A DNA stretch of 64,000 nt from Candidatus Pacearchaeota archaeon (GTDB lineage: Archaea; Nanobdellota; Nanobdellia; Pacearchaeales; GW2011-AR1): assembly GCA_041654895.1 (NCBI GenBank), contig JBAZCR010000001.1, forward strand, positions 11,057 to 75,056, read 5' to 3'. This document shows, piece after piece, positions 3,968 to 16,408 of the stretch (the stretch's first letter is position 1; each line of letters begins with the position of its first letter). A program made the translations under genes and the position numbers. The notes beneath the pieces are model-generated. The model had not been told where the DNA came from, searched no databases, and was given only the letters and a program-made list of their open reading frames with translations.

Positions 3968-3971
3968 AAAT

Positions 3972-4054
3972 GAGGAGATGCCGGAGCGGTCAAACGGGGT
4001 ACGTTAAGGGCGTATTGGTTTTTACCTACGGGGGTTCGAATCCTCCTCTCCTCA
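3972..4054 (+). tRNA. tRNA-Leu (type II, long variable arm); anticodon reads AAG by standard numbering
   Basis: Acceptor GAGGAGA/UCUCCUC, D-arm CCG-GAGCGGUCAAA-CGG, anticodon arm GUACG-UUAAGGG-CGUAU, about 14-nt variable arm, T-arm GGGGG-UUCGAAU-CCUCC, discriminator A73, no encoded CCA. A34 is unusual, so the anticodon call is less certain than the Leu/type-II call. Confidence 0.75.
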
Positions 4055-4066
4055 TTAAAATAAAAA

Positions 4067-4424: not shown

Positions 4425-4838
4425 ATGGTAAAAATAATAGTTAATGGTAAAGATGCAATTTTAGGTAGAATGGGTAGTTATGTTTCTAAGGAATTGCTAA
4501 AAGGAAACTCTATTGATATAATTAATAGTGAAGAAGTTGTTATCTCTGGGAAAAAAGAATATATGATTGAAAAAATAAAGAGAAAAAGAAGAATGGGACA
4601 AGGAAGTTCATTAAAAGGCCCAAGATATATTAGAAGGGAAGACATGTTATTAAAAAGAATGATTAGAGGAATGTTACCCTGGGATAGGCAAAAGGGAAGA
4701 GATGCCTATAAGAGATTAAGATGTTATATAGGGGATAATAATTTAACAGAGGAACAAAAGAAAAAAACTAAAAATTTTGAACATCACTTGCCATTAAATC
4801 ATTATAAATTAAAAGAAGTTGTTAAGGGGTTAATATGA
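4425..4838 (+). CDS. rpl13: 50S ribosomal protein L13 (uL13)
   Basis: IIVNGKDAILGRMGSYVSKELLKG and MLPW.R.KGR motifs, plus synteny. Confidence 0.8.
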   Translation: MVKIIVNGKDAILGRMGSYVSKELLKGNSIDIINSEEVVISGKKEYMIEKIKRKRRMGQGSSLKGPRYIRREDMLLKRMIRGMLPWDRQKGRDAYKRLRCYIGDNNLTEEQKKKTKNFEHHLPLNHYKLKEVVKGLI

Positions 4839-5236
4839 ATAATATTGTAGTTACAGGAAAAAGAAAGAGTGCTATTGCAAAAGCCACAATAAAAGAAGGA
4901 ACAGGAAACATTACTATAAACAGAAGACCAATTTCTCAATTACCTTATTTACAACAATTAGAGGTAAATGAGCCCTTAATATTAACTCATGAAATATTAG
5001 GTAATTTAAATTTTGACGTTAGTGTAAATGTTAAGGGTGGTGGAACTTCATCAAGAATTGAGGCATCAAGACTTGCTATAGCAAGAGCAATTTTAAAATA
5101 TTTTAATAACGAAGAACTTAGAAGAACTTTTATTACCTATGATAGAAATATGGTGGTAGCAGATACTAGAAGAAAAGAAGCCTGTAAACCCGGGGATTCT
5201 AAAGCAAGAGCAAAAAGACAAACAAGTTTTAGATAA
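4835..5236 (+). CDS. rps9: 30S ribosomal protein S9 (uS9)
   Basis: GKRKSAIAKATIKEGTG, GGGTSSRIEASRLAIARAIL, and the C-terminal ARAKRQTSFR. Confidence 0.8.
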   Translation: MNNIVVTGKRKSAIAKATIKEGTGNITINRRPISQLPYLQQLEVNEPLILTHEILGNLNFDVSVNVKGGGTSSRIEASRLAIARAILKYFNNEELRRTFITYDRNMVVADTRRKEACKPGDSKARAKRQTSFR

Positions 5237-6386
5237 GATTAAAAATTAATTTTAAAAAGTGAACAATTTTTTCTCCACCCAATTGTATTACAATTCCAAA
5301 GATAAATACTAAACTTAACAAAAAAATTGCAATTTTATTTAATGGAACTGAATACTCGGGAATTCTTTTTCCTTTTTGTTTTGATTTAAAATTCATAACT
5401 AATATTAAAATGCCAGTTGAACCTCCTGTAACTACTCCAGCAAAGGATAAAATTTGAACAAAAGAAGCTAATTTAAAAAAATGAATTATTAAGAACATAA
5501 TGATTGGAGCAATTGAGCAGATGAGCCATGCGTGATTTCTTTTAACATTAAAATCAAACCTAAACATGTCTCTTAGTGATATATTAAGGGATAAATAACT
5601 TGTAAAAATAGCTATAGCTCCTAAAACAGCAAAACCTCTTCCCAAAGCTAATGTTGCAATCTCAGGAACTTGTTTTCCAAAATTTCCTAGTAAGACCAAA
5701 GTGAATAAAGAATAAACTACAAAAGGAATTAAAACTCCAAGAATAATAGATTTTTTCATCCAATTTTCTTTTCCTAATAGCAATCTTTTAGCTGAAGGAA
5801 TAGAAGAGAAAGATGTGAAAGAGAACAATACAATCCCAAAAGGAAAGAAGAAATTTTCTGGTTCAACAAATGTTAAGTTATCCATTTTTATTGAAGGAGT
5901 ATAAAATAATATAATTAAAAAAATAAATCCTAATATAAAATAAAACCCTACTTTTCCATATAGTTTTAATGCTCTAAGTCCGATATATGTTAGAATAGAA
6001 AGTAAAATCCAGAAAATAATTGAAAAAAGTAAGGCATAATTATTTGTTCCAGAAAAAATATAAGATAGGCTCTCACCTCCACCAATTATATATGCAATTA
6101 ATGTTGAAAAAATGTAAAAAATCATAATGAAAAGAGTTAATTTTTTTCCTTTATTACCTAAATATCTCTTTGCATAACCTGTTAATTGGCTATTTCCCTT
6201 TGTTCTTAAAATAATTTCTCCTAAACAAAGTTGAACAAATAAAACAAATAAACCAATTAAAATTAGATAGATAAAACCAATCAAAAATCCGGTTTTAGCA
6301 ATGATATAAGGTAAGCCTAAAAAACCTGCACCCATTGCCGTCCCTGCAATTAATGAAACAGGGTTTGATAATTTTTTTTTCACCAT
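5229..6386 (-). CDS. Amino-acid permease-like polytopic membrane protein (HAAAP/Aa_trans-like)
   Basis: About 11 predicted TM helices. N-terminus SLIAGTAMGAGFLGLPYIIAKTGF resembles hydroxy/aromatic amino-acid permeases. Confidence 0.45.
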   Translation of the reverse strand: MVKKKLSNPVSLIAGTAMGAGFLGLPYIIAKTGFLIGFIYLILIGLFVLFVQLCLGEIILRTKGNSQLTGYAKRYLGNKGKKLTLFIMIFYIFSTLIAYIIGGGESLSYIFSGTNNYALLFSIIFWILLSILTYIGLRALKLYGKVGFYFILGFIFLIILFYTPSIKMDNLTFVEPENFFFPFGIVLFSFTSFSSIPSAKRLLLGKENWMKKSIILGVLIPFVVYSLFTLVLLGNFGKQVPEIATLALGRGFAVLGAIAIFTSYLSLNISLRDMFRFDFNVKRNHAWLICSIAPIIMFLIIHFFKLASFVQILSFAGVVTGGSTGILILVMNFKSKQKGKRIPEYSVPLNKIAIFLLSLVFIFGIVIQLGGEKIVHFLKLIFNLI

Positions 6387-6470
6387 CTTATAAATAACAA
6401 ATTAAGTCTAAACTTAAATATCTTTTGAAAAAAATAAAATATTTATAAATTAAATCAAATTAATAATTAA

Positions 6471-9128
6471 ATGAAGAAAGAGGAGATTGTTGGTTTATCT
6501 AGTGCAGAATCTAAAAAAAGATTAGAAGAACACGGGTTTAATGAAATTAAAGATGTAAATAAAATATCTTCTTTTAAAATATTAATTAGACAAGTAAAAA
6601 GTAATTTCATTATTTATCTTTTGTTAGTTGCTATGATTTTATCTTTTCTTGTAAGTAAAAATATTACAGCCTACGTTTTACTTTTTGTTATACTAATATT
6701 AGTTACAACAGGATTTATTCAGGAATATAAGGCAGAAAAGTCAGTCCAAGCTCTTAAAAAAATGATTACTTCTACATGTCTTGTATTAAGAGATGGAAAA
6801 GAAAAAGAAATATATGTAAAAGAGCTTGTTCCAGGAGATATTTTAATTTTGAGAAATGGAGAAAAAATTCCTGCAGATTGTTTAATATTATATAAAAAGG
6901 AATTGTTAGTTAATGAATCTGTTTTAACCGGAGAAGCACATGAAATAAAAAAGGAGATAGCTATAGATCCTCAAAAATATGAAGATAAAAATGTGTTATT
7001 TATGGGTTCTTTTATTGTCCGTGGAAAAGCAATAGCAAAAGTAATTCATACTGGAATGAATACTAAATTTGGAAAGATTGCTAAATTAATATCCAAGAGT
7101 GAAAAAGAATTACTTTTACAAAAAAAAGTAAATAATATTGCAAAGTACATGGCCACCATAGGTCTATTTTTTTCAATTTTAACTGGACTAATAATTTTAT
7201 TTAGAGCTCCAGAGTTGAATAACCAAGTAATTGTTGAAGCATTAATTCTTGTTATTGCTGTTGCAGTATCATCATTTCCTGAAGGGTTTCCTGTTGTTTT
7301 AATTACAGCATTAGCCACAGGCTCATATAGGATGGCAAAGAAAAATGCCATTGTAAATAGAATGTCAATTATTGAAACATTAGGAGAAACGACAGTTATT
7401 TGTTCAGATAAAACTGGAACAATTACAAAAGGGGAAATGACAGTTACAAACATTTATTCTGATAATAAAGAATATACACTTTCTGGAACTGGTTATAATG
7501 ACAAAGGGAATTTTTATTTAGATAATAAGCCCGTAACTCTAGATAAAGAAAAATCCTTACAATTGTTATTAAAAGCAGGAATATATTGTAATGATGCGCA
7601 TATATATAGGAGTGGTCAAGAAGAGGGTGATTTTGATATAAATGGAACTCCAACAGAGGCTTCATTATTAATTGCAGCTTCAAAGGCAAAATTGTTTTAT
7701 GAGGATTTGTATTTTGATAGAAAAGAAGAGAATCCATTTTCATCTGAAAGAAAAATGATGTCTGTTTTAATTAAAGAAAAAAAAGAGAACTTTATTTACG
7801 CAAAAGGGGCCTTAGAAGTTTTATTAGATAAGTGCTCTTTTATTCAGAGAAATTCTGGAGTATATAGGCTTCTTGAAAAAGATAAAAAGAAAATATTAGA
7901 AGAAAATAAAAGATTTGGGAGTGAGTCATTAAGAACTTTAGCCTTTGCATATAAAATAACAAAAAATAATTTTAATAAAAAAATAGATTTTGAAAAGGAT
8001 TTAATCTTTTTAGGATTTGTAGGTATTAGAGACCCACCAAGAGAAGAGGTTAAAGAGTCTGTTAGGATGTGTAAAAAAGCAGGAATCAAAGTAAAGATGA
8101 TTACAGGAGATAGTAAAGAAACAGCTTATTCAATTGCAAAACAAATTGGTTTAGATAAAGGAAAAATTTTAGAAGGATTTGATATTGATAAATTAACTGA
8201 TGATGAACTAACAAGAATTGTTAATAAGACCGTTATTTTCGCGAGAGTAAGACCAGAACACAAATTAAGGATTGTAAAAGCACTAAAGGAGAATGGTGAA
8301 ATTGTTACAATGACAGGAGATGGAGTTAATGATGCTCCTGCACTAAAAGAAGCACATATTGGAGTTGCAATGGGCAAGAGCGGGACTGATGTTTCTCGTT
8401 CTGTTGCAGATTTAATTATTAAGGACGATGATTTCTCCACTATTGTTGATGCTATAAAAGAAGGAAGAACTATATTCAATAATATTAGAAAGTTTGTAAC
8501 ATATCAATTATCAGCTAATATAGCAGAATTAATAATTATTGTCATAGGCGCCTTATTAGTTCCTATTTTCGGTTGGCCAATCCCATTATTATTAGCATTG
8601 CAAATATTATTTATGAATATTGTAACTGATAATCTTCCTGCAATAACTTTAGGTTTAAACAAATCTTCTCAAGATATTATGGATGATAAACCAAGAGTAA
8701 AAGCACAGATTTTAAATAAGAATTTTGTACTAATTTTAATTTTCTCAGGAATATTTATGGCTTTGTTAGTCTTAATTACATTTTACTTTACATATAATAT
8801 CTTAGGTCAAACTATTGAAAGTGCAAGAACAACATCTTTAATTGCGCTAATATTTTTAGAAATTGCCGGTGCTTTTAATTTTAGAAGCTTCAGAAAAGGA
8901 ACAATTGGAAGATCTCTATTAACTAACCCTTCTTTAGCAATAGCTTCTTTTGTTTCAATTCTTGCAACAGTTTTGATAATTTATACTCCATTAAACATTA
9001 TATTTGAAACAGTTCATATACCTCTAATTGATTGGATTTTTGCTACAGGTCTTGGAATATTTTATATTATTGTATTTGATATTTTTAAAAAAATAAATGT
9101 AAAGAATCAAATACTAGATTTCAATTAA
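6471..9128 (+). CDS. Cation-transporting P-type ATPase (P2-type, Ca2+/Na+-K+ ATPase-like)
   Basis: CSDKTGTITKGEM phosphorylation motif, MITGDSKETA, TGDGVNDAPALK, TGE actuator motif, and 8-10 TM helices. Confidence 0.85.
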   Translation: MKKEEIVGLSSAESKKRLEEHGFNEIKDVNKISSFKILIRQVKSNFIIYLLLVAMILSFLVSKNITAYVLLFVILILVTTGFIQEYKAEKSVQALKKMITSTCLVLRDGKEKEIYVKELVPGDILILRNGEKIPADCLILYKKELLVNESVLTGEAHEIKKEIAIDPQKYEDKNVLFMGSFIVRGKAIAKVIHTGMNTKFGKIAKLISKSEKELLLQKKVNNIAKYMATIGLFFSILTGLIILFRAPELNNQVIVEALILVIAVAVSSFPEGFPVVLITALATGSYRMAKKNAIVNRMSIIETLGETTVICSDKTGTITKGEMTVTNIYSDNKEYTLSGTGYNDKGNFYLDNKPVTLDKEKSLQLLLKAGIYCNDAHIYRSGQEEGDFDINGTPTEASLLIAASKAKLFYEDLYFDRKEENPFSSERKMMSVLIKEKKENFIYAKGALEVLLDKCSFIQRNSGVYRLLEKDKKKILEENKRFGSESLRTLAFAYKITKNNFNKKIDFEKDLIFLGFVGIRDPPREEVKESVRMCKKAGIKVKMITGDSKETAYSIAKQIGLDKGKILEGFDIDKLTDDELTRIVNKTVIFARVRPEHKLRIVKALKENGEIVTMTGDGVNDAPALKEAHIGVAMGKSGTDVSRSVADLIIKDDDFSTIVDAIKEGRTIFNNIRKFVTYQLSANIAELIIIVIGALLVPIFGWPIPLLLALQILFMNIVTDNLPAITLGLNKSSQDIMDDKPRVKAQILNKNFVLILIFSGIFMALLVLITFYFTYNILGQTIESARTTSLIALIFLEIAGAFNFRSFRKGTIGRSLLTNPSLAIASFVSILATVLIIYTPLNIIFETVHIPLIDWIFATGLGIFYIIVFDIFKKINVKNQILDFN

Positions 9129-9682
9129 GGATATCTCTCAACAAAATTTTTATTGTTACGAGGTTTTAGAATTTTATTTAGCTTTCTCTGAGTAGCATAA
9201 AAAATCTCTGGATTAACTAAAGGAGTATGATTAGAAGGATACAATTGATTATTAAATTTTATTTCGCCTAGATAGGTCCTATTTTTTAAAATTTTTTTTA
9301 GACCATTTAATGAAATCCCGAAATCTTTAGAGAGCTTATTTAAAGAAATGTTTGAATTTAAAAATGTTTTAAAAATTAAAATAACTTTTGTTGAGTCTTC
9401 ATTTAATGTAAGAGCATTATTATGGATAGTATAACCAAAAGGAGCTCTTGTAACAGGATAACCCTGCTTTGCCTTAGCTTGCATTCCGGATAACTGTTTT
9501 TTTCCTGGTGTCGAATTATAAATCCTAAAAGTATCTAACATCTTCCAATCTATTTTTTCATTAATGTATTTTTCAAAATCCTTCTTGTTTTCTGGAGAAA
9601 ATGTCGAACAAATATTACATAGTGGCTGGTTAAATTTTAGGATATATCTTTTTTCATGATAACCACATTTTATGCATTTCAT
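9125..9682 (-). CDS. Zn-ribbon plus large-serine-recombinase 'Recombinase' domain protein that lacks the resolvase catalytic domain
   Basis: CIKCGYHE...CNIC ribbon, then GYPVTRAPFGYT...VILIFKTFL..ISLNKLSKDFGISLNGLKKILKNRTYLGEI...HTPLVNPEIFYATQ. This matches the pPyGY / vrrIf / iL.N..Y.GE / HePii..e.F..vQ blocks of the PF07508-type domain. Start trimmed to the internal ATG at 9680-9682, because the track's longer start overlaps the upstream gene. Confidence 0.5.
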   Translation of the reverse strand: MKCIKCGYHEKRYILKFNQPLCNICSTFSPENKKDFEKYINEKIDWKMLDTFRIYNSTPGKKQLSGMQAKAKQGYPVTRAPFGYTIHNNALTLNEDSTKVILIFKTFLNSNISLNKLSKDFGISLNGLKKILKNRTYLGEIKFNNQLYPSNHTPLVNPEIFYATQRKLNKILKPRNNKNFVERYP

Positions 9683-9704
9683 AACTAAATAAAAGGAGGG
9701 GTAT

Positions 9705-10220
9705 TTATAAAATAAGGGGACAATAATGCTTATCTTGAGAAATACTCTCAAGAGTTTTTTTTCTAAAAACATAATGTGCAAGGCCATCTGCCAAATAAAC
9801 CAAATAATTATTTTGGTCTAAATAATCTTGTGAAATAATTTCTAATTGAGATTCTTCTAAATTAAACTTATCAAAAAACATGTTAGAAATAGAATCTATC
9901 TCTTTGTCTTCCTTTAAACCATCGATATATAAGGTTAACTTAGTTACATCACTAAAATCAAAAGGATAAAATAAACTATAGACTATTTGTGGGAGTAATT
10001 TGCCTGAAGGTATTTCAGATTTTAATTTTTCATGTAATAATAGATAAGAATAATCTCTTCTATAAACTTTTTTTAGAAAAGAAGAATAATTTTTTCTGTT
10101 TTTCTCAAAATGGTTTTTTTGTGTGTCCTTTTCTTTATTTGATAATATTAATGCAAAAACTTCTGGGAATCGTCCATGATTTGACTCATCTATTCCTGCA
10201 TAAAGGTTTTTCTTTTTCAT
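9705..10220 (-). CDS. DUF3800-like protein (predicted RNase H-like fold)
   Basis: N-terminal YAGIDESNHG (y.DESG motif) and C-terminal YLVYLADGLAHYV (QxADl.ag-like), characteristic of DUF3800. Start overlaps the xerA stop. Confidence 0.45.
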   Translation of the reverse strand: MKKKNLYAGIDESNHGRFPEVFALILSNKEKDTQKNHFEKNRKNYSSFLKKVYRRDYSYLLLHEKLKSEIPSGKLLPQIVYSLFYPFDFSDVTKLTLYIDGLKEDKEIDSISNMFFDKFNLEESQLEIISQDYLDQNNYLVYLADGLAHYVFRKKTLESISQDKHYCPLIL

Positions 10221-11053
10221 TACAGATTCAGAGAATCTATTGGGCTTTTTATCTTTTTCAGTTCCTGAGTTGATATATGGGTGTATATTTGAGTTGTTGA
10301 TAAATTTGAATGACCTAATAATTCTTGGATTTTCCTTATATCTACATTATTCTCTAATAAATGGGTTGCGAAAGAATGTCTAAGTGTATGACAATGAACT
10401 CTTTTGTTTATATTTGCTTTTCTTGCAGCAGTTGTAACAATTTTTTGAATATTCCTTGTTGTCAACTTTTGTTTTGGACCTGAAAATAGGTAGATATTAT
10501 TATACTTTTTTTGTTTTTCCACTTGTTCCTTTAAATCCTCCATTAAAAAAAGAGGCAAATTAAAAATTCTATCTTTATTTCCTTTTGATTGTTTTATACG
10601 TCCTACTCTTTCATTAAAATCTAAATCATCTAGCCTTAAATTAACCAACTCTGAAACTCTTAAGCCACATGCGTACATTAAAGATATGATCAATTTTGAC
10701 TTTTCGTTGTTTGTTGAATTTATTAGGAATTTTATTTCATCTTTTGTTAAGACCGTAGGCAATATTTTATTTTTCTTAGGCCTTTTAACGCCCAAAGTTG
10801 GATCTTGATTTAATAAATTTGAATAAGCATATCTTATTGCAGCTAGAAAAAGAATTATTGAGCTTGAAGATTTATCTGAATATTTTTCTGCTAAAAAAAA
10901 CTTTATGTCTTCTGTATTTATCTGATTTGGGTTCTTTTCTAAGAAATCTATTAATTCGCTATTAGCTCTTAAATAATTTCGAATAGTATAATTTGAATTT
11001 TTTGTTATTTTTAATTCTATTTCTAATTTTTTTAAAAAATCTTCTTTATTCAT
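10220..11053 (-). CDS. xerA: Tyrosine recombinase XerA (XerC/D family)
   Basis: C-terminal catalytic box HTLRHSFATHLLENNVDIRKIQELLGHSNLSTTQIYTH, with R..K..H..R..H/W..Y residues. 277 aa, as for archaeal XerA. Confidence 0.8.
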   Translation of the reverse strand: MNKEDFLKKLEIELKITKNSNYTIRNYLRANSELIDFLEKNPNQINTEDIKFFLAEKYSDKSSSSIILFLAAIRYAYSNLLNQDPTLGVKRPKKNKILPTVLTKDEIKFLINSTNNEKSKLIISLMYACGLRVSELVNLRLDDLDFNERVGRIKQSKGNKDRIFNLPLFLMEDLKEQVEKQKKYNNIYLFSGPKQKLTTRNIQKIVTTAARKANINKRVHCHTLRHSFATHLLENNVDIRKIQELLGHSNLSTTQIYTHISTQELKKIKSPIDSLNL

Positions 11054-11216
11054 AATTTCACCTATTTTACTTCATAGATTGTACGAACAAGTATTTATAT
11101 TTTTGTTTTAACATTAAAAGATATTTGTTTTTGAAAAAAAAGGTTTTTCGGTTTAACGAATAATTAAATCGAAGTATTTTAAATTTAAATTAAACTTGAA
11201 TAAAAATTTTTTGTCG

Positions 11217-11244
11217 AGGATATAAAGAAAGATTTTATATATCT
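11217..11244. promoter_or_regulatory. Candidate dif-like Xer recombination site
   Basis: 28-bp AGGATATAAAG-AAAGAT-TTTATATATCT with inverted ATATAAA arms, about 165 bp upstream of xerA. The GGATATAA...TTATAT..CTAA arrangement resembles, from memory, the Pyrococcus dif. Unverified. Confidence 0.25.
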
Positions 11245-11453
11245 AAAAGTTAAAAAGACTCACTTTTTCTAAAATAAATTATGAAAAAAAAGAAATAAAT
11301 TAAGTTTTGCTTATTTTTTAACTCTCACTTTCTAAACTATTTTTTAAGCCTTTTTTAAGGTTGTACGAACTAATTAAACAGAAGTTTTAGAGATTTTTGG
11401 AAAAGCTAAAATAGAAAAGGAAATATCTTTTTTAAGTAAAAACACTAATCAGC

Positions 11454-11924
11454 TTAAATAAGCTCCTTAGAGATACTTTTTTCATAAAAGGGTGTTTTAT
11501 ACCCTAATTCTTGTAATCTTTGATATAATTCAAATCTAAAACGAGAATTATTGATCATTCTATGGTGATTTGGGCATAAGCCGACTAAATTTCCAAAAGA
11601 GTTATTTTTTTTATTTTTGTCTAGATGATAAATATCAACAATTTTATCAAATCCACAAATTACGCAAGATTTTGTTATTTTTCTGAAAGTCTTTAAATCA
11701 ATATTATTTGACTTTCTTTGTTGATAGGCTCTTAGTTTTTCACTTTGGTAAACATAGTTATAACAGGAGGCACATAAACCTTTTGCATGAATGGCTTTTT
11801 TCTGTTTGCATCTTCCACAAATTTTAAATTTTGGCGACCAATTTAGTTTTTTATAACAAGAATAACAAAGACCTTTCGCATGGTGCTCCTTTTCTTCATG
11901 ACAATTAATACATTTTTTAATCAT
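11454..11924 (-). CDS. HNH endonuclease with N-terminal Cys4 zinc fingers
   Basis: HNH motif VDIYHLDKNKKNNSFGNLVGLCPNHHRMIN, and two N-terminal CxxC...CxxC pairs. Confidence 0.6.
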   Translation of the reverse strand: MIKKCINCHEEKEHHAKGLCYSCYKKLNWSPKFKICGRCKQKKAIHAKGLCASCYNYVYQSEKLRAYQQRKSNNIDLKTFRKITKSCVICGFDKIVDIYHLDKNKKNNSFGNLVGLCPNHHRMINNSRFRFELYQRLQELGYKTPFYEKSISKELI

Positions 11925-12070
11925 TTTAAAAAAAAGTCGTTCGCATATAAAAATTTATGTTAGAACGGGTAGAATAAGTTCGATTTATACTATTAGAACT
12001 TCATACAAGGTATATTATACGAACCTTGCTAAATTTCTTGTTATTTTATGGATTTTAAAATAGTTTTGAA

Positions 12071-12394
12071 TCATCTAAAAGCTAATTTTGCAAAATTTAC
12101 GAATTCCTCTAAATTTTTTAGTTTTTCTTTTTGTTTGTATATTTCCTCAGTCATTTCCAGTATATTTTGTTTGGCCAAAGAATTTACTTCTTCTTGAGAT
12201 ATGATAGAAAGATTATATTCTGTTCGACAATTAGGGCAATAAAAACCCTTATCAAGAGCATTATAATAAGAGAGAATTCTTGTTTTATCATAAGGACAAA
12301 TTAAATCTGTTATTCTTTCGATAGGATTAAAATTACTTAATGAAATTACTCTTACTTCCTTTGTTTTCCAATCTATAAACGAAAGAGATTCCAT
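12071..12394 (-). CDS. Hypothetical Zn-ribbon protein
   Basis: CPYD...CPNC pair. No family assignable. Confidence 0.3.
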   Translation of the reverse strand: MESLSFIDWKTKEVRVISLSNFNPIERITDLICPYDKTRILSYYNALDKGFYCPNCRTEYNLSIISQEEVNSLAKQNILEMTEEIYKQKEKLKNLEEFVNFAKLAFR

Positions 12395-12629
12395 ATATAA
12401 TTCATAAGATTAAAGATATTTAAAATTTTCTATATTCTTTGACAATAAAGAAATTCTAAGAAAATTTATCCTATAAGATAAAGCCTATTATTTTATCTAA
12501 TAAATAAAATTCAGGACTTAATAGATCATTTATTGCAGGGCAAGTTTGCACAAAGGTAAACAAAGTGACAATATTAATTTAAGTACAATTACTCAAAATT
12601 TTAAAATAAAAAAAAGTTTTTTTACATCC

Positions 12630-12929
12630 CTATTTATTTTTTCTTCCTAGCTTATGAGAAATAAGATAATTTAATATAAAGCAGATCGAAAATGATAAAA
12701 TAATTAAAATTAGATAAGTCATCCTTATAGAAGAAATCATTCCAAAAAATTTTATAAAGGAATTTGAAAGAAAATAATTTTCTGGATCTAAAGAACATAA
12801 AGACCATGAATAAGTTGGATTCGGAACTTTTGGAGCAAATTTACAAGGGATAAATGGAATAAAAAGGGAAAGGATTAAGAGAAACAAAGAAACTAAAGCA
12901 GAAATTGTTAAATAATTTTTTACTTCCAT
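12630..12929 (-). CDS. Small hypothetical membrane protein
   Basis: Two hydrophobic segments, 99 aa. Confidence 0.25.
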   Translation of the reverse strand: MEVKNYLTISALVSLFLLILSLFIPFIPCKFAPKVPNPTYSWSLCSLDPENYFLSNSFIKFFGMISSIRMTYLILIILSFSICFILNYLISHKLGRKNK

Positions 12930-13024
12930 AATTAGAATATAAGATACTTCTCTTTTTAATACTTTTTATAATAGTCAATAGAAAACAAACAGCCGTTTAA
13001 AACATAAACAAACAGTCAAAAAAG

Positions 13025-13555
13025 CTGTTTGGACAGCAAACAACAAACAAACAGCCAAAAATAAAAAATTAAATAAAAATATTAAAAAAGGATGTTTTAT
13101 CTTTGATGTTTATAAGAAAACAGATAACCATTAAAAAAGAAAGAAGACTAAGAATACTAAAAAAATAGAACTTAGCTGTTTGGACAGCTGTCCAAAAAAT
13201 GGAAAAACTTATAAAGATAAACAATATTATTATAATATGTTTGGTGGTAAAAAGAGAGTAGAAATTCTAAGAAAAGAAGTGATAGAATCCTTTAATAATG
13301 TTAAAAACGATTTGGCGAAAGTGGGTAAATGGATTAAAGTTATAGACGATAAAAACAATTTAAATGAAAAAAACAATAGAGAATTGAAAGAAGAATTAAA
13401 ACAAATAAGAGAAGATTTAGAAGAAGTAAAAGGTAGCATAGAATTCTTTGGACAAGGATTGTCCAAACAGCTGTCCAAACACAAACAAACAAGTATAAAC
13501 AAACAACAAACAGTGTTTCCTGTCCAAACAGCTGTCCAAACAGCTGTCCAAACAG
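13025..13555. repeat. Dispersed and tandem copies of the 12-mer CTGTCCAAACAG / CTGTTTGGACAG
   Basis: Copies at 13025-13036 (rc), 13176-13187 (rc) adjoining 13188-13196, which gives the perfect 18-bp palindrome TTTGGACAGCTGTCCAAA at 13179-13196 spanning the ATG. Further copies at 13460-13481 (x2) and 13520-13555 (x3 tandem, encoding VQTAVQTAVQT). Related AAACAAACAG(C/T)C repeats occur 3 times at 12970-13070. Confidence 0.7.
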
Positions 13556-13848
13556 TTAAAATAGAGAAATTAACAGTTATGGAAAGGGCAATTATTTTTG
13601 CATTATTAAATAGCGAAATAAAATTAAGTTATGAAGATTTGGCAGCAATGTTTGGGAAAAGTAAAAGTACTATAAGAGGCCAAATTAATAATATTAAACA
13701 AAAAAATGTCAATTTAATTGAAGAATACACAGAACCAAATGGAAAAAAGAGACTATTTTTACCAGAAAAAGTCAAAAGCGACATTACAAAAGACATTAAA
13801 GTGAAAATAAAGCGTGAAAAACCTAAAAAGGCGAAAAGTGAGAGTTAA
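13180..13848 (+). CDS. Coiled-coil / low-complexity repeat / C-terminal winged-helix protein (putative DNA-binding)
   Basis: N-terminal heptad-rich segment, central Q/T-rich repeat encoded by the 12-mer repeats, and a C-terminal wHTH-like ERAIIFALLNSEIKLSYEDLAAMFGKSKSTIRGQINNIKQ. Paralogous in architecture to 14021..14728. Confidence 0.4.
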   Translation: MDSCPKNGKTYKDKQYYYNMFGGKKRVEILRKEVIESFNNVKNDLAKVGKWIKVIDDKNNLNEKNNRELKEELKQIREDLEEVKGSIEFFGQGLSKQLSKHKQTSINKQQTVFPVQTAVQTAVQTVKIEKLTVMERAIIFALLNSEIKLSYEDLAAMFGKSKSTIRGQINNIKQKNVNLIEEYTEPNGKKRLFLPEKVKSDITKDIKVKIKREKPKKAKSES

Positions 13849-14020
13849 AAATAATAAAAAGATATAGAAAAATCATTGAAAAGTGAGGGATTAATAAAAA
13901 AATTAAATTTTAAAAAGAGGTAAAAGAGAGAACAAGAATAAATATAGAGAGAATAAAAAGATTCAGAAACTGACTAAAGAAGAAAGATGAAGATAGTTAT
14001 TCGCTTAAACGAATAGTATC

Positions 14021-14728
14021 TTATAAATCTCTAAGTTTAATTATTGTTGATAAATTTGTAATCTCTTTAAGGGTTGAAGAGATAGAAAGTATAACTTTTT
14101 TGTTATTTAGCCTTCTTTTTGTTATAGGAATTCCTTTTTTAATCAATTTATTGACATAATCTCTTATAGAAGATTCGCTTAAATTTAATTTATCTGAAAT
14201 TAATTTATAGTTTATATTTTCATATTTTTGATCCTCATATGTATATATCGTTGAAAAGACTAACATTTCCTGGGATGTTAAATTTTTGAATGTCTTTCTT
14301 ATATCCTTTTTAACATCATCTAAAGAAGAAATTATTATATGAGCCTTTTCAAAATTAGATGAAATATTTAAAAAACCACTATTTTCATTTGAATTATTGA
14401 AATTTATGCCTATATTGTCTGTTGGTTTGTCTGTTGGTTTGTTTGTTGGAACCCCTTCATTTCCTGTGGAAAAAATGAAATTTTGAGCTTTTAAGCCATT
14501 TAAGAGGAGATTTTCATTAAGATCTATTGCTGGTTTGTTGGACTTATTATATTCACCTAATAGGTAATGTGTTGGAATTGCCTTTTTTTCTATTGAATCA
14601 ATTTTATTAGAATTTAGGTTTTGATAAGATCTTATAGCGTTTAATTCATTTTTCAATAAATCTAGTTCCTTTTTTAAAAAATTTATTTCTTCTTTGATTT
14701 TAGAAAATGCCTCTTTTAACATATCCAT
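14021..14728 (-). CDS. Coiled-coil / repeat / C-terminal winged-helix protein (paralog of 13180..13848)
   Basis: N-terminal LKEAFSKIKEEINFLKKELDLLKNELNAI coiled coil, KPTDKPTD tandem repeat (DNA GGTTTGTCTGTTGGTTTGTCTGTTGGTTTGTTTGTTGG at about 14418-14455), and the C-terminal wHTH MLVFSTIYTYEDQKYENINYKLISDKLNLSESSIRDYVNKLIKKG. Confidence 0.4.
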   Translation of the reverse strand: MDMLKEAFSKIKEEINFLKKELDLLKNELNAIRSYQNLNSNKIDSIEKKAIPTHYLLGEYNKSNKPAIDLNENLLLNGLKAQNFIFSTGNEGVPTNKPTDKPTDNIGINFNNSNENSGFLNISSNFEKAHIIISSLDDVKKDIRKTFKNLTSQEMLVFSTIYTYEDQKYENINYKLISDKLNLSESSIRDYVNKLIKKGIPITKRRLNNKKVILSISSTLKEITNLSTIIKLRDL

Positions 14729-14783
14729 AAGAAAAGATAATCAAAATTATTTATATTTATGATTGTTTTTAATTATAATAATT

Positions 14784-15053
14784 TCATTGCATTTGTTTGT
14801 ATGCTTCATATGTTTTATTTGAAAGTCTCCATCTTAATCTTCTTTCATAAATTTGACCTAAAGAATTTCTATTTATTTTAACAACTAAACCCTTATTATT
14901 TAAGTCAAGAAGTAATTTCTTTATGAATTCTTCATCCCTTGCTAATTCTTTTGCTATATTACTTGTAAATACTTGTTTGGGTGAAATTAAAAACAAATAA
15001 GATAATATTTGTTCTGAAATTTTCTTTTTTTTTGACTCTGATATTCTTGGCAT
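14784..15053 (-). CDS. Small winged-helix transcriptional regulator-like protein
   Basis: 89 aa. ISEQILSYLFLISPKQVFTSNIAKELARDEEFIKKLLLDLNNKGLV is HTH/wing-like. Confidence 0.4.
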   Translation of the reverse strand: MPRISESKKKKISEQILSYLFLISPKQVFTSNIAKELARDEEFIKKLLLDLNNKGLVVKINRNSLGQIYERRLRWRLSNKTYEAYKQMQ

Positions 15054-15153
15054 AACTAGATAAATAATATTTGTTTTATATAATTTACCAATTAAGAAAA
15101 TAAATGTCTTCGACTACACAAACATTTATAAATTATTTCTATTTAAACAAGAT

Positions 15154-15408
15154 ATGGAAAAAAGACCTTTTAAAAACTTTCTTGGAAAACAAGTTGTTAC
15201 AAAAGAAGGTAAAAAACTAGGGTTAGTTAAAGATATTACTTTTGAAGCAAGAACAGGTGAATTAATCCATTTAGTTATAAAAGATTTAACTAATTATACC
15301 AGTAACTTATCTATTGAAAGAACTAAGGAAAAGGAAGCTTTAATACCTTATAATTCTGTTATTGCAATTGGAGATTTTATTGTGATTTCAGAAGAAGATT
15401 TAATTTAA
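15154..15408 (+). CDS. PRC-barrel domain protein
   Basis: FLGKQVVTKEGKKLGLVKDITFEARTGELIHLVI pattern. A paralog lies at 58146..58430. Confidence 0.5.
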   Translation: MEKRPFKNFLGKQVVTKEGKKLGLVKDITFEARTGELIHLVIKDLTNYTSNLSIERTKEKEALIPYNSVIAIGDFIVISEEDLI

Positions 15409-15438
15409 ATAAATAATAAAATTTAAAAAGATATTTGG

Positions 15439-15861
15439 GTGAATAAAAATATGATAAAATTATTAGCATCAAAAATAACAAGTATTTTGGCTCAAAGAGA
15501 TCCTACTTTTAATGGGAAAATTGAATTGAATCAAAATATTAAAATAAAAAAAATAGAGAAATTTGCCTTGGAAGGTTCAAAAAAAGATTCTCTAAAAGTA
15601 AATTATATTTATGATATTGATTATAAAAAACTTGGTAAAATAAGTATTGAAGGTATATTATATTTAGATGTTGAACAAAAAATAATGAAAGAAATTATAA
15701 AAGACTGGAAAGAAAATAAAAAAAATGAAGAAAGACAATTAGAAATTATTAATATAATTATTCAAAAAGCTTCAATTAAGGCTATAGAATTAGAGGATCA
15801 ATTAGGGCTTCCAATTCATTTTAGATTGCCTTTTTTAAAAAGAAAAAAAGAAAATGACTAA
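15439..15861 (+). CDS. Hypothetical protein
   Basis: 140-aa Lys-rich ORF with no recognisable motifs. Confidence 0.3.
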
Positions 15862-16066
15862 GAAAAAAAGAAAAGTAAATTGGATATTAACTCTTTTAAT
15901 GTCTATATTTTTTGGTGGTATTGGAGTAGATAGATTTATTTTAGGGCATATTTTTTTAGGATTACTTAAATTATTTACTTTTGGTGGTTTAGGTATTTGG
16001 TGGCTAATAGATTTGATATTAATTGCTACAAAATATAATTTTAAAAATATTATATGGGTTGATTAA
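15854..16066 (+). CDS. TM2-domain small membrane protein
   Basis: [35 protein letters not shown] matches the TM2 signature (GxxGxxRFYLG...T.GG.GIW...D). Confidence 0.5.
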
Positions 16067-16085
16067 TTAATTTAATTTTAAAAAA

Positions 16086-16341: not shown

Positions 16342-16408
16342 TGATGGTAAGGATTCTTATCTTTCAATTATATTAAACTTTATATAGTTTAAATTTATAT
16401 TTTAATTA

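What the first reader, a model, noticed from the sequence alone, without database searches (positions are those of the whole stretch)
9125..12400. Accessory-looking recombinase/nuclease island next to the origin
Four tightly packed or coupled minus-strand genes (xerA, then DUF3800, then Zn-ribbon/Recombinase-domain protein, and further on an HNH endonuclease and a Zn-ribbon protein) are separated by unusually long non-coding spacers (11054-11453, 11925-12070, 12395-12629, 12930-13179) in an otherwise compact genome. The combination of an RNase-H-like DUF3800 protein, a DNA-binding Recombinase domain without a catalytic domain, and an HNH nuclease has no obvious housekeeping role. It could be an integrated element remnant or an uncharacterised DNA-targeting or defence module co-opted next to the chromosomal Xer system.
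Basis: partly seen in the sequence, partly recalled or inferred. Interest (0 to 1): 0.6.

Follow-up and report, generated by a model that had tools for sequence, protein, structure and literature searches.

The report
Conserved DPANN recombinase–nuclease gene block
What looked like a foreign recombinase/nuclease island is a gene block inherited by hundreds of tiny DPANN archaea, and it contains two undescribed protein families (a catalytically dead recombinase-derived DNA binder and a miniature RNase HII-like nuclease) plus strongly conserved non-coding elements.

Summary
The window is a Candidatus Pacearchaeota contig.

- **Zn-ribbon/Recombinase-domain protein (P3, 9125-9682):** relatives occur in at least 242 species genomes. 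It lies convergent with the rpS9 operon in 60 of 61 testable loci. XerA is upstream in 47 of 70. P3 is about as conserved as ribosomal proteins (54% identity; S9 63%, L13 48%). Its N-terminus is a degenerate HNH zinc finger, followed by a large-serine-recombinase DNA-binding domain, with no catalytic domain.
- **"DUF3800" protein (P2, 9705-10220):** it matches no DUF3800 model. It is a 171-aa RNase HII-like fold with an intact DEDD tetrad.
- **Island signatures:** GC matches the background. There are no att repeats, no adjacent tRNA and no defence-model hits.
- **Accessory parts:** only the 107-aa Zn-ribbon ORF, and the ATPase/transporter insert beside P3, are species-specific.
- **Spacers:** they hold conserved elements. 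An 87-nt element upstream of HNH is more conserved than the HNH coding sequence. GTTYGYAYAA boxes are shared by the xerA and HNH promoters.
- **Recombinase swap:** in four relatives a small serine recombinase occupies the xerA slot.

Function is inferred: chromosome maintenance, with P3 as a site-specific DNA binder.

The parts
10220..11053 (-). xerA, archaeal Xer-type tyrosine recombinase (277 aa)
   Evidence: NF040815 recomb_XerA_Arch scores 235.2 bits, above the 220 cutoff. Phage_integrase E 3.9e-47 plus SAM-like N-terminal domains. The R, HxxR, H and Y catalytic residues are readable in the translation. Median identity to relatives is 62%.
9705..10220 (-). P2: compact RNase HII-like (type 2 RNase H-like) DEDD nuclease, 171 aa, translationally coupled to xerA
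   Evidence: No Pfam or NCBIfam hit. The family has at least 115 clusters at 90% identity and 372 representatives at 50% identity, with DPANN names wherever a source names the protein, apart from one 'Patescibacteria group bacterium' label. The AlphaFold model has pLDDT 95.3. Best PDB folds are archaeal RNase HII 1eke (E 7e-7, TM 0.61) and 2dfh, then RNase HIII and human RNASEH2A. The family profile hits 1eke at E 4.5e-4. D100 aligns with IYIDA and D135 with KADAKY of 1eke. D11, E12, D100 and D145 are invariant or nearly invariant in the 98-sequence alignment; D135 is invariant in the 3- and 32-sequence alignments. The start codon overlaps the xerA stop.
9125..9682 (-). P3: degenerate HNH zinc finger + end of helix alphaE + serine-recombinase 'recombinase domain' (RD). 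No catalytic domain and no zinc-ribbon/coiled-coil domain. 185 aa.
   Evidence: PF07508 scores 25 bits, above the 21.1 cutoff. phrog_95 E 3e-16. The model has pLDDT 88. Foldseek gives the LSR-DNA complex 4kis at E 3e-6, rmsd 2.0-3.9 A. BLASTP to a true HNH+RD paralogue (L044) gives 38% identity, E 2e-39, starting at the LCxIC cysteine pair. Residues 66-169 align to a DPANN small serine recombinase at 40% identity, E 5e-24. Its own TATA box, TTTTATAAAT, sits 30 nt before the ATG and overlaps the P2 stop.
11454..11924 (-). Conserved small HNH nuclease with two N-terminal CxxC...HAKGLCxxCY zinc ribbons (156 aa)
   Evidence: PHROG HNH families at E 1e-7 to 1e-6. Pfam HNH_3 and HNH_2 are below threshold. 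Found in 24 of the 80 related loci, in the same upstream position (20 of the 59 loci with at least 5.5 kb of upstream DNA), at a median 64% identity. No close relative in viral contigs.
11938..12024 (-). 87-nt conserved non-coding element directly upstream of HNH. It holds GTTCGYAYAA, two inverted-repeat pairs (CGTTC/GAACG and CGTTTGCA/TGCGAACG) and a TATA-like TTTTTAATAT about 29 nt before the ATG.
   Evidence: Fixed 87-nt length. Mean pairwise identity is 81.5% in 19 species, against 70.8% for the HNH coding sequence, 49.5% for third codon positions and 42.9% for the upstream flank. No Rfam match. Covariation is weak or inconclusive.
11079..11088 (-). GTTCGTACAA box between the TATA box and the start of xerA
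   Evidence: Conserved between the window and the 80%-identity relatives L007 and L013. The motif lies within 400 nt upstream of xerA in 18 of 52 species, in gene orientation.
11361..11370 (-). Second GTTCGTACAA box in the 400-nt xerA-HNH spacer
   Evidence: Four of the window's 6 matches (up to 1 mismatch) lie in 11079-12553.
12071..12394 (-). 107-aa Zn-ribbon ORF. Species-specific ORFan and the only truly accessory member of the block.
   Evidence: No tblastn match in the 80%-identity relative L007 or in L009. The corresponding L007 DNA does not align as coding sequence. No homologue in the 80 related loci. Its 90% cluster has 3 members.
12630..12929 (-). 99-aa small membrane protein, syntenic in relatives
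   Evidence: Homologue upstream of P3 in 23 of 59 loci, median 37% identity.
13237..13848 (+). 203-aa coiled-coil + HTH protein (weak ParB-HTH similarity), syntenic in relatives, with palindromic repeats in and before its own gene
   Evidence: HTH_DeoR E 1.2e-4, HTH_ParB E 2e-3, TIGR00180 E 2e-3. Homologue in 30 of 59 loci. Repeats.

Best explanation
The block is a vertically inherited chromosome-maintenance neighbourhood of Pacearchaeota/Woesearchaeota-type DPANN archaea. It is not an inserted island.

Shown:
1. xerA is a bona fide archaeal Xer recombinase.
2. P2 is a 171-aa type-2 RNase H-like nuclease. It keeps the four RNase HII carboxylates (D11, E12, D100, D135) but lacks the C-terminal domain.
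3. P3 is a catalytically dead derivative of a DPANN HNH+RD / small-serine-recombinase lineage. It has a Cys4 beta-beta-alpha finger that has lost the HNH His and Asn residues, the end of helix alphaE, and the DNA-binding recombinase domain.
4. P3 is a single-copy gene fixed beside the S13-S4-S11-RpoD-L18e-L13-S9 operon. It has its own consensus promoter and evolves about as slowly as ribosomal proteins.
5. The long spacers carry promoters and conserved cis elements shared by xerA and HNH.

Inferred:
- P2 cleaves RNA/DNA hybrids or embedded ribonucleotides, for primer removal or ribonucleotide excision. It may be the lineage's fast-evolving RNase HII.
- P3 binds a specific double-stranded DNA site through its RD. 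My estimates for its role are:
  - about 0.3: it acts with the recombinase encoded beside it, selecting or regulating the resolution site. That recombinase is XerA in 67% of species and a small serine recombinase with a homologous RD in about 6%.
  - about 0.25: it is a transcriptional repressor, for example of the GTTYGYAYAA-box genes.
  - the rest: some other chromosome-organisation role.
- The conserved HNH nuclease is a domesticated housekeeping nuclease co-regulated with xerA.
For: Synteny and breadth:
- 242 species genomes encode a tblastn-confirmed relative of P3.
- P3 is convergent with rpS9 within 4 kb in 60 of 61 loci.
- XerA is upstream on the same strand in 47 of 70 loci. HTH222 is upstream in 30 of 59, HTH235 in 28 of 59, TM99 in 23 of 59 and HNH in 20 of 59.
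- The same order is seen in L009 and L095.

Purifying selection: median identity to the window is S9 63, XerA 62, HNH 64, P3 54 and L13 48%. P3 has 33 invariant columns in 112 sequences.

Domains.

Not foreign:
- Island-gene GC is 0.24-0.29, against a background of 0.256 +/- 0.03.
- No att-like repeats. The nearest tRNA gene (3971-4055) is about 5 kb outside the block.
- No PADLOC hits for P2 or P3.
- Viral contigs hold only the RD of ordinary phage integrases at 23-43% identity.

Linkage of P2 to XerA and P3 despite rearrangement: at least four different orders and orientations occur among the 23 loci with P2.

Recombinase slot: in L063, L080, L082 and L087 a 252-257-aa Resolvase+Recombinase protein replaces XerA between the HTH genes and P3. 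The nearest relatives of those genomes carry XerA there.

Cis elements.
Against: - No function was measured. No dif site was identified, either in the spacers or elsewhere.
- P3 has its own promoter and is usually 0.5-1 kb from xerA (median gap 834 nt; 100 nt or less in only 2 of 47). In 19 of 70 loci it has no recombinase within 4.5 kb. Adjacency may therefore reflect frozen synteny rather than function.
- P2 lies next to P3 in only 18 of 69 loci and sits in unrelated contexts in more distant DPANN.
- P2 is below the Pfam RNase_HII threshold and lacks the C-terminal substrate-binding domain.
- Whether these genomes also carry a canonical rnhB could not be checked.
- The codon adaptation index of the block genes (0.58-0.65) is 1-2.5 SD below the window's long genes. 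This may be a strand or expression effect.
- The origin assignment rests only on orc1/cdc6-polD adjacency.
Confidence: 0.6

Rival explanations
1. Integrated mobile-element remnant or genomic island. xerA-like integrase, nuclease genes and a truncated serine-recombinase pseudogene were left behind by an element that inserted near the origin.
For: - The gene content looks element-like: an integrase-family gene, HNH, and a recombinase domain without a catalytic domain.
- P3's closest full-length relatives are HNH+RD and small serine recombinases, which look mobile in L044.
- The codon adaptation index is slightly low.
- The 107-aa ORF is species-specific.
Against: - The order and position are conserved across dozens of species-level genomes.
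- P3, XerA and HNH are conserved at ribosomal-protein level.
- P3 is full length with 33 invariant columns in 112 sequences, so it is not a decaying pseudogene.
- GC equals the background. There are no att repeats and no adjacent tRNA.
- xerA passes the XerA equivalog cutoff.
- No full-length P3 occurs in viral contigs.
Confidence: 0.04
2. Uncharacterised anti-virus defence or DNA-targeting module combining an RNase-H-like nuclease, an HNH nuclease and a DNA-binding targeting protein.
For: Nuclease plus DNA-binding domain combinations are typical of defence systems. The HNH protein has a weak PADLOC hit to a homing-endonuclease model (E 9e-4).
Against: - No PADLOC hits for P2 or P3.
- Defence genes are normally patchy, fast-evolving and located in variable islands. 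Here P3 and HNH are slow-evolving and positionally fixed.
- The components do not co-occur as a unit. P2 is beside P3 in 26% of loci and HNH in about a third.
- P2 is stand-alone among housekeeping genes in other DPANN.
Confidence: 0.04
3. No functional module at all. These are unrelated housekeeping genes (XerA, a divergent RNase HII, a lineage-specific DNA-binding or transcription factor, an HNH nuclease) that sit together only because this part of a small, rarely rearranged genome has kept its ancestral order.
For: - P3 has its own promoter and is separable from XerA: 19 of 70 loci have no recombinase nearby, and the median gap is 834 nt.
- P3's most constant neighbour is the convergent rpS9 operon, which is not co-transcribed.
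- P2 occurs in unrelated contexts elsewhere.
Against: - P2 stays next to XerA and P3 through at least four different rearrangements.
- xerA and P2 are translationally coupled in this species and its near relatives.
- The xerA slot is refilled by a serine recombinase, not by a random gene, in at least two separate lineages.
- xerA and HNH share a promoter-proximal motif.
Confidence: 0.3

Closest known systems
Archaeal XerA/dif chromosome-dimer resolution (Cortez et al. 2010, PMC2958812; XerA structure PMC3646895)
   Same: The window's xerA passes the XerA equivalog model and has the SAM-like and catalytic domains. As in Thermococcales, no dif site is evident next to the gene.
   Different: No partner protein is part of the XerA work consulted here, and to my knowledge XerA acts without accessory proteins. 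In this lineage, xerA is translationally coupled to an RNase HII-like gene in this species and sits upstream of a dead-HNH/RD DNA-binding protein in 67% of related species. In a few relatives it is positionally replaced by a serine recombinase.
Large serine recombinases / phage serine integrases (Listeria A118-type integrase-DNA complex 4kis; Bxb1; phiC31)
   Same: P3 residues ~66-170 have the end of helix alphaE plus the RD. The sequence evidence is PF07508 and phrog_95; the fold match is 4kis at E 3e-6, 23-25% identity.
   Different: There is no resolvase catalytic domain and no Ser nucleophile. There is no zinc-ribbon/coiled-coil domain. The N-terminus is a degenerate HNH finger. P3 is a 170-185-aa single-copy core chromosomal gene, absent as such from viral contigs.
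Archaeal RNase HII (M. jannaschii 1eke, T. kodakarensis 2dfh; Pfam PF01351)
   Same: Best structural and only recurring sequence match. The GIDE motif, the (I/Y)ID(G/A) motif and the (L/A)D motif align, which gives a complete DEDD tetrad.
   Different: P2 is 171 aa, against 220-230 aa for the matched RNase HII chains; the profile alignment to 1eke ends at residue 163 of 230, so the C-terminal part has no counterpart. GRG is replaced by an invariant SNHGRFPE. There is an extra invariant ADxxA motif. It is below the Pfam threshold. Identity is about 18%.
DUF3800
   Same: An N-terminal 'IDES' motif and a C-terminal 'AD' motif. By my own recollection it also has an RNase-H-like fold.
   Different: No HMM match for the window protein or for any of 98 relatives, even at E<=10.
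Xer accessory or regulatory proteins in bacteria (FtsK-gamma/XerD, PepA/ArgR at cer/psi, XafT) and truncated recombinase-derived regulators. Analogy from general knowledge.
   Same: A non-catalytic DNA-binding protein encoded with, or acting with, a Xer recombinase to select or license the site. This is the working model for P3.
   Different: No homology to any of them, and the functional link here is only inferred from gene neighbourhood.

Membership tests
Archaeal XerA (NCBIfam NF040815) | Whole-protein score above the curated equivalog cutoff | tested here: met
   235.2 bits against a cutoff of 220, covering 11-268 of 277 aa.
Archaeal XerA (NCBIfam NF040815) | Tyrosine-recombinase catalytic domain with the R..K..HxxR..H..Y residues, plus a SAM-like N-terminal domain | tested here: met
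   PF00589 E 3.9e-47, PF02899 and PF13495. LRVSE, HTLRHSFA, GHS and IYTH are readable in the translation.
Archaeal XerA (NCBIfam NF040815) | Acts on a chromosomal dif site | not tested
   No convincing 11-6-11 inverted repeat that is conserved in relatives was found in the spacers. A genome-wide search was not possible.
DUF3800 (Pfam) | Match to the family HMM | tested here: not met
   No hit at E<=1 for the window protein. No hit in any of 98 family members at E<=10.
RNase HII / type 2 RNase H (PF01351) | Match to the family HMM above the gathering score | tested here: not met
   The window protein has no hit. 8 of 98 relatives have weak hits, best E 0.0033. The family profile against the 1eke sequence gives E 4.5e-4.
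RNase HII / type 2 RNase H (PF01351) | RNase H-like fold closest to RNase HII | tested here: met
   Model pLDDT 95.3. The top Foldseek PDB hits are 1eke, 2dfh and 1x1p, then RNase HIII and RNASEH2A, with TM 0.56-0.64.
RNase HII / type 2 RNase H (PF01351) | Conserved DEDD catalytic carboxylates | tested here: met
   D11, E12 and D100 are invariant in 98 sequences. D135 is invariant in the 3- and 32-sequence alignments. D100 aligns to IYIDA and D135 to KADAKY of 1eke.
RNase HII / type 2 RNase H (PF01351) | C-terminal helical substrate-binding domain and GRG/Tyr junction-recognition motif | tested here: not met
   The protein ends about 50 residues short. The alignment covers 1eke only to residue 163 of 230. 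GRG is replaced by SNHGRF.
RNase HII / type 2 RNase H (PF01351) | Cleaves RNA/DNA hybrids or single embedded ribonucleotides | not testable with these tools
   Needs an enzyme assay.
Large serine recombinase | N-terminal resolvase catalytic domain with a serine nucleophile (PF00239) | tested here: not met
   P3 has no PF00239 hit, and only PF07508 is on record for the 120 listed relatives. The neighbouring DPANN recombinases score 130-150 bits.
Large serine recombinase | Recombinase domain (PF07508) with the LSR RD fold | tested here: met
   25.0 bits, above the 21.1 cutoff. Foldseek 4kis E 3e-6, rmsd 2.0-3.9 A over 121-132 columns.
Large serine recombinase | C-terminal zinc-ribbon domain with a coiled-coil | tested here: not met
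   The protein ends about 15 residues after the RD. The C-terminal tail is disordered in the model.
HNH endonuclease (P3 N-terminus) | Catalytic His-Asn-His on a beta-beta-alpha-metal finger | tested here: not met
   The Cys4 scaffold and a predicted strand-strand-helix element are kept. The HH...N...CH residues present in the paralogue L044 (PF01844, 41.8 bits) are missing from P3.
HNH endonuclease (ORF 11454-11924) | HNH motif and family match | tested here: inconclusive
   Pfam HNH_3 at 15.1 and HNH_2 at 13.3 bits are below their cutoffs. PHROG HNH families reach E 1e-7 to 1e-6. YHLD...GNL...NHH is readable.
Genomic island / integrated element | Patchy presence among relatives, or a variable insertion site | tested here: not met
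   Conserved position and order in dozens of species. Present in all contigs of the same species.
Genomic island / integrated element | Flanking direct repeats, a tRNA target, or deviant composition | tested here: not met
   No att-like repeats. The nearest tRNA is at 3971-4055, outside the block. GC equals the background; only the codon adaptation index is slightly low.
Known anti-phage defence systems (PADLOC-DB 2.0) | Match of the components to defence-system models | tested here: not met
   No hits for P2, P3, Zn107 or TM99. HNH has only weak hits: E 9e-4 to a homing-endonuclease model and E 0.0028 to PDC-M68A.

The most novel reading that the evidence does not exclude
P3 is an essential, DPANN-wide protein exapted from a serine-recombinase/HNH mobile element. 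It would serve as the non-catalytic, site-selecting or licensing subunit of chromosome-dimer resolution. Its catalytic partner would be XerA in most lineages, or a small serine recombinase with a homologous RD where XerA was displaced in situ. The RNase HII-like P2 and the HNH nuclease would be co-regulated through the GTTYGYAYAA boxes. This would be the first accessory factor described for an archaeal Xer system. It would also be a case of a tyrosine recombinase and a serine recombinase being interchangeable at one chromosomal function.
Probability: 0.15. Interest if true: 0.75.

Novelty: new variant of a known kind. Interest (0 to 1): 0.5.

Why it matters
DPANN archaea have minimal genomes, and a large share of their conserved genes have no known function.

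- **Two named families.** One is a dead-HNH + recombinase-domain DNA binder that is about as conserved as ribosomal proteins and sits at a fixed chromosomal position. The other is a miniature RNase HII-like nuclease with no Pfam model. Both come with testable biochemical predictions.
- **Possible partner for XerA.** If P3 works with the neighbouring recombinase, archaeal Xer recombination, so far thought to need no partner, has an accessory factor in this lineage.
- **New regulatory elements.** The conserved 87-nt element and the shared promoter boxes point to an undescribed regulatory circuit for recombination and repair genes in organisms that cannot yet be grown alone.
- **A caution for genome scans.** Recombinase-plus-nuclease gene content alone is a poor predictor of mobility or defence.

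Tried and rejected
- **Rfam.** At E<=1 over 8500-17000 the only match was a chance snoRNA hit. No tRNA lies in the block.
- **Sequence searches of P2 alone.** A single-sequence search against the PDB found nothing. The first profile search was dominated by spurious TALE-repeat matches to the HGRFPE..S motif. I removed these by trimming the N-terminus.
- **dif site.** A short-range inverted-repeat search in 9000-17000 gave only AT-rich low-complexity palindromes. One dif-like candidate seen by eye (about 11215-11245) is not conserved in L007 or L013, so I dropped it.
- **Origin.** No ORB-type repeats were found upstream of orc1/cdc6.
- **RNA structure for the 87-nt element.** RNAalifold gave -5.6 kcal/mol with almost no covariation. 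My two-hairpin model is 92% paired, but one pair is broken in 8 of 21 sequences. Single-sequence minimum-free-energy folds disagree between species. RNA versus DNA-site therefore remains open.
- **Canonical RNase HII.** A regex for the G[IV]DEAG[RK]G motif found none in the window or in 835 kb of related loci. That sampling is far too small to show absence.
- **ORFs between xerA and P3.** In relatives without a detectable P2, these are unrelated small membrane proteins, not divergent P2.
- **Literature.** Searches found nothing on these families.

Full report
**What is there.** The window is a contig of a Candidatus Pacearchaeota (DPANN) metagenome-assembled genome. The same sequence is in NCBI assembly GCA_964595795.1 and in 15 other metagenomic contigs.

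On the minus strand, running 5' to 3', the block holds:
- a 99-aa membrane protein (12630-12929);
- a 107-aa Zn-ribbon ORF (12071-12394);
- a 156-aa HNH protein (11454-11924);
- xerA (10220-11053);
- a 171-aa protein, P2 (9705-10220);
- a Zn-ribbon/Recombinase-domain protein, P3.

The longest ORF for P3 starts at 9787. All homologues begin at the Met-x-Cys-x-Lys-Cys that corresponds to 9682, so the gene is 9125-9682 and encodes 185 aa. The xerA stop and the P2 start overlap by one base, TAATG. P3 starts 22 nt after the P2 stop. It keeps its own TATA box (TTTTATAAAT, 30 nt before the ATG), which overlaps the P2 stop codon.

The median gap between greedy ATG-ORF calls in the window is 42 nt. Excluding one gene-call artefact, 6 of the 13 gaps of at least 140 nt lie between 11054 and 16408.

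**Domain checks.** xerA passes the curated archaeal XerA model, at 235 bits against a cutoff of 220. It has the integrase catalytic and SAM-like domains.

P3 passes PF07508, at 25.0 bits against a cutoff of 21.1. It matches the serine-integrase PHROG at E 3e-16 over integrase positions 226-372.

The HNH protein is below the Pfam thresholds. It matches several PHROG HNH families at E 1e-7 to 1e-6, and the H-N-HH motif is readable.

P2 has no Pfam, NCBIfam, PHROG or PADLOC hit at a meaningful level. DUF3800 in particular is absent. It is also absent from all 98 family members scanned at E<=10, where the only recurring family is RNase_HII, in 8 members with best E 0.0033.

**P2 is a miniature RNase HII-like nuclease.** A single-sequence search found only three clusters. 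A profile of those three found 115 clusters at 90% identity. It also found 372 representatives at 50% identity. They are 150-220 aa and, wherever a source names them, carry DPANN names, apart from one 'Patescibacteria group bacterium' label.

In a 98-sequence alignment, D11-E12-S13-N14-H15-G16 and D100 are invariant. P19, E20, K40, G101, A144, D145 and A148 are nearly invariant. The AlphaFold model is very confident, with pLDDT 95.3 and pTM 0.90.

Its best PDB neighbours are the archaeal RNase HII structures 1eke (E 7e-7, TM 0.61-0.63) and 2dfh/1x1p. RNase HIII and human RNASEH2A follow.

By sequence profile the family hits 1eke at E 4.5e-4. After trimming the N-terminal motif, which had caused spurious TALE-repeat hits, the alignment places P2's IDG (D100) on IYIDA of 1eke. 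It places LD (D135) on KADAKY. With the N-terminal GIDE (D11, E12) this gives a complete DEDD tetrad.

P2 is about 50 residues shorter than RNase HII and lacks its C-terminal domain. It replaces the GRG motif with SNHGRFPE. It therefore works like a type-2 RNase H but does not pass the family's membership threshold.

**P3 is a catalytically dead, domesticated recombinase derivative.** The family search returned 217 clusters. The best 120 are nearly all 164-189 aa, 48-62% identical to the query over at least 86% of its length, apart from two closer relatives (74 and 84%), one 119-aa fragment and eight longer gene calls (203-270 aa), and carry DPANN names wherever a source names them. In 112 sequences, 33 columns are invariant, including four cysteines (C3, C6, C22, C25).

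The model (pLDDT 88) shows two short beta strands and a helix, then three helices, then the RD. Foldseek puts the RD on the Listeria integrase-DNA complex 4kis (E 3e-6, rmsd 2.0-3.9 A, 23-25% identity). It also matches recent full-length serine integrase structures.

Two relatives found in related loci explain its origin. Locus L044 encodes a paralogue with a bona fide HNH domain (PF01844, 41.8 bits) fused to the same linker and RD. BLASTP against P3 gives 38% identity and E 2e-39, starting exactly at the second cysteine pair: LCNICSTFSP against LCSICHHYAP. P3 therefore keeps the zinc scaffold of an HNH finger but has lost the HH, N and CH catalytic residues.

Several loci also encode 252-261-aa Resolvase+Recombinase proteins (PF00239 at 130-150 bits). 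Their helix-alphaE end and RD are 40% identical to P3 residues 66-169, at E 5e-24.

In 2.9 million viral contigs only the RD part matches, at 23-43% identity, so there is no viral P3. I take these matches to be ordinary phage integrases but did not inspect them.

**The block is core, not accessory.** A pattern scan of one genome per GTDB species confirmed a relative of P3 in 242 genomes. I analysed the 80 best loci, each with 6-kb flanks, using my own HMM and phmmer searches. The results were:
- rpS9 lies convergent with P3 within 4 kb in 60 of 61 loci with enough downstream DNA, and within 1.5 kb in 55 of 72.
- XerA lies upstream on the same strand in 47 of 70 loci.
- HTH222 is upstream in 30 of 59 loci, HTH235 in 28 of 59, the 99-aa membrane protein in 23 of 59 and HNH in 20 of 59.
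- All of these keep the window's order and orientation.

The pre-annotated contigs L009, L093, L094 and L095 show the same picture.

Median identity to the window proteins is S9 63%, HNH 64%, XerA 62%, P3 54%, L13 48%, the membrane protein 37% and P2 29%. P3, XerA and HNH therefore evolve like ribosomal proteins.

Other island signatures are missing:
- GC of the block genes (0.24-0.29) equals the window background of 0.256 +/- 0.03. The codon adaptation index is 1-2.5 SD lower, which I regard as inconclusive because most reference genes are on the other strand.
- There are no att-like direct repeats.
- The nearest tRNA gene (3971-4055) lies about 5 kb outside the block.
- There are no defence-model hits for P2 or P3.

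The truly variable pieces are the 107-aa Zn-ribbon ORF and a 3.9-kb segment. The ORF has no counterpart even in the relative whose proteins are 80-87% identical. The segment carries a P-type ATPase and an amino-acid transporter (5229-9128). In this species it separates P3 from rpS9, whereas in most relatives the two abut.

**How tight is the XerA-P2-P3 link?** In most species P3 has its own consensus promoter, ACATTTTATAAATTCT, about 30 nt before the ATG, which suggests a leaderless transcript. It is usually 0.5-1 kb from xerA. The median gap is 834 nt, and the two are directly adjacent in only 2 of 47 loci. In 19 of 70 loci no recombinase lies within 4.5 kb.

P2 is within 1.2 kb of P3 in 18 of 69 loci. 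Where present it occurs in at least four arrangements: XerA>P2>P3, XerA>P2(reverse)>P3, XerA>P3>P2 and P2>XerA>P3. It therefore stays in the neighbourhood through rearrangements. In more distant DPANN, P2 is stand-alone among housekeeping genes, near gyrB in one case and near orc1/polD in another.

In L063, L080, L082 and L087 the xerA (and HNH) position between the HTH genes and P3 is occupied by a small serine recombinase. By P3+S9 similarity, the nearest relatives of those genomes carry XerA there. L063 is separate from the L080/L082/L087 group, which implies at least two replacement events. Whether XerA survives elsewhere in those genomes could not be checked.

**What the spacers contain.** The 400-nt spacer upstream of xerA has islands identical between the window and the 80%-identity relatives. 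They include two GTTCGTACAA boxes, one between the xerA TATA box and the start codon.

The roughly 100 nt upstream of HNH are almost invariant between those relatives and across more than 20 species. The core is a fixed 87-nt element (window 11938-12024). Its mean pairwise identity in 19 species is 81.5%. The comparison figures are 70.8% for the HNH coding DNA, 49.5% for third codon positions and 42.9% for the next 150 nt upstream.

The element contains GTTCGYAYAA and two inverted-repeat pairs. It also contains a TATA-like TTTTTAATAT, placed the same distance (about 29-30 nt) from the ATG as the P3 TATA box.

It has no Rfam match. Evidence for an RNA structure is weak:
- RNAalifold gives -5.6 kcal/mol.
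- My two-hairpin model is 92% paired, but has only four single-sequence compensatory changes and one pair broken in 8 of 21 sequences.
- Single-sequence folds disagree between species.

I therefore favour a promoter with flanking operator half-sites, without excluding a small RNA or attenuator.

Across the 80 loci, GTTYGYAYAA occurs 123 times in 835 kb. Of these, 46 lie within 400 nt upstream of HNH (21 of 24 loci) and 19 upstream of xerA (18 of 52 loci), almost always in gene orientation. Other genes that follow it closely are:
- a recurrent 167-aa unknown protein;
- a pyrimidine-dimer glycosylase (PF03013, E 1.6e-15);
- an HD hydrolase;
- a HAD hydrolase.

This hints at a recombination/repair regulon or a special promoter class. 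In the window, four of six copies (up to 1 mismatch) lie in 11079-12553.

**Mechanism, with the status of each step.**

Shown:
- the domain identities;
- the loss of the catalytic residues in P3;
- the retention of the DEDD tetrad in P2;
- the core synteny and purifying selection;
- the shared cis motifs.

Inferred:
- P2 is an active Mg-dependent nuclease on RNA/DNA hybrids. It may be the lineage's divergent RNase HII. RNase HII is a near-universal single-copy archaeal replication protein (PMC3914693), and no canonical copy was seen in the small amount of sequence available.
- P3 binds a specific double-stranded DNA site with its RD, as the RD does in serine integrases.
- My probabilities for P3's role are about 0.3 for a site-selecting or licensing partner of the adjacent recombinase, about 0.25 for a transcriptional repressor (possibly of the box genes), and the remainder for another chromosome-organisation role.
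- The HNH protein is a domesticated, co-regulated housekeeping nuclease.

The claim 'next to the origin' is only weakly supported. orc1/cdc6 and polD are 5.4 kb away behind a spacer of about 19-20% GC, but there are no ORB repeats and no skew inflection.

**Comparison with known systems and novelty.** The closest known systems are archaeal XerA/dif (PMC2958812), serine integrases and archaeal RNase HII.

No partner protein figures in the XerA work I consulted, and there dif is not next to xerA. In serine integrases the RD is always attached to a catalytic domain and a zinc/coiled-coil domain.

P3 fails two of three defining features of a large serine recombinase. P2 fails the HMM threshold and the C-terminal-domain feature of RNase HII. 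Both are best described as new variants of known kinds.

Public annotation calls them 'recombinase family protein' and 'hypothetical protein'. Full-text searches found no description of either family.

**Verdict.** The accessory, defence or integrated-element interpretation is not supported. What remains is of moderate interest:
- a conserved DPANN maintenance block with two uncharacterised protein families;
- a strongly conserved non-coding element;
- a possible tyrosine-to-serine recombinase swap in situ.

Noticed in passing
window 11938-12024 (minus strand); same element in L013, L019, L023, L025, L029, L030, L034, L035, L040, L042, L045, L046, L051, L055, L056, L059, L065, L069, L072, L073: An 87-nt non-coding element directly upstream of the HNH gene. 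It has a fixed length and 81.5% mean pairwise identity across 19 species, higher than the adjacent coding sequence (70.8%) and far above third codon positions (49.5%). It has no Rfam match. Whether it is a promoter/operator array, a small RNA or an attenuator is unresolved.
   Followed up: partly
window 11079-11088, 11361-11370, 12015-12024 (minus), 12544-12553 (plus); 80 related loci: The GTTYGYAYAA box recurs just upstream of xerA, HNH, a 167-aa unknown protein, a pyrimidine-dimer glycosylase, an HD hydrolase and a HAD hydrolase in related genomes, almost always in gene orientation. It may mark a recombination/repair regulon or a special promoter class.
   Followed up: partly
window 13179-13196 and 13458-13556, around and inside gene 13237-13848 (+); also L007, L030, L051, L056, L059, L063, L064: A perfect 18-bp palindrome, TTTGGACAGCTGTCCAAA, sits in the promoter of a coiled-coil/HTH protein with weak ParB-HTH similarity. 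Tandem TGTCCAAACAGC repeats lie inside its coding sequence, where they encode QTAVQTAVQT. The 12-mer is conserved in or near the homologous gene in several species. The arrangement resembles parS sites inside parB, or autoregulatory sites.
   Followed up: partly
L063 4622-5377, L080 4609-5379, L082 ~4600-5370, L087 4138-4902; L044 850-1632 and 1613-2215: Small serine recombinases (Resolvase+Recombinase, ~255 aa) occupy the xerA slot upstream of P3 in four species whose nearest relatives carry XerA there. L044 has such a recombinase overlapping an active HNH+RD gene. That pair looks like the mobile ancestor type of P3.
   Followed up: partly
window 5229-9128: An amino-acid transporter and a P-type cation ATPase lie between rpS9 and P3 in this species. 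In 55 of 72 relatives rpS9 lies within 1.5 kb of P3, so this 3.9-kb segment, not the recombinase block, is the lineage-specific insertion. In one metagenome (L002) the ATPase is split into two ORFs of 563 and 322 aa.
   Followed up: no
window 12071-12394: The 107-aa Zn-ribbon ORF has no homologue in the 80%-identity relative L007 or in any of the 80 related loci. It is either a young or fast-evolving gene or not a gene at all.
   Followed up: partly
window 16067-16408: A 342-nt spacer of about 19-20% GC lies upstream of orc1/cdc6 (16409-17623) and the PolD small subunit (17675-19270). It is a plausible origin. No ORB-type repeats were detected, and the cumulative GC skew turns only near 26 kb.
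   Followed up: partly
upstream of P3 in L019, L023, L025, L027, L029, L030, L034, L035, L036, L040, L042 and others; window 9683-9715: The P3 promoter, ACATTTTATAAATTCT, is nearly identical across species and lies about 30 nt before the ATG. This suggests a leaderless transcript and independent transcription of P3, even where it follows P2 by only 22 nt.
   Followed up: no
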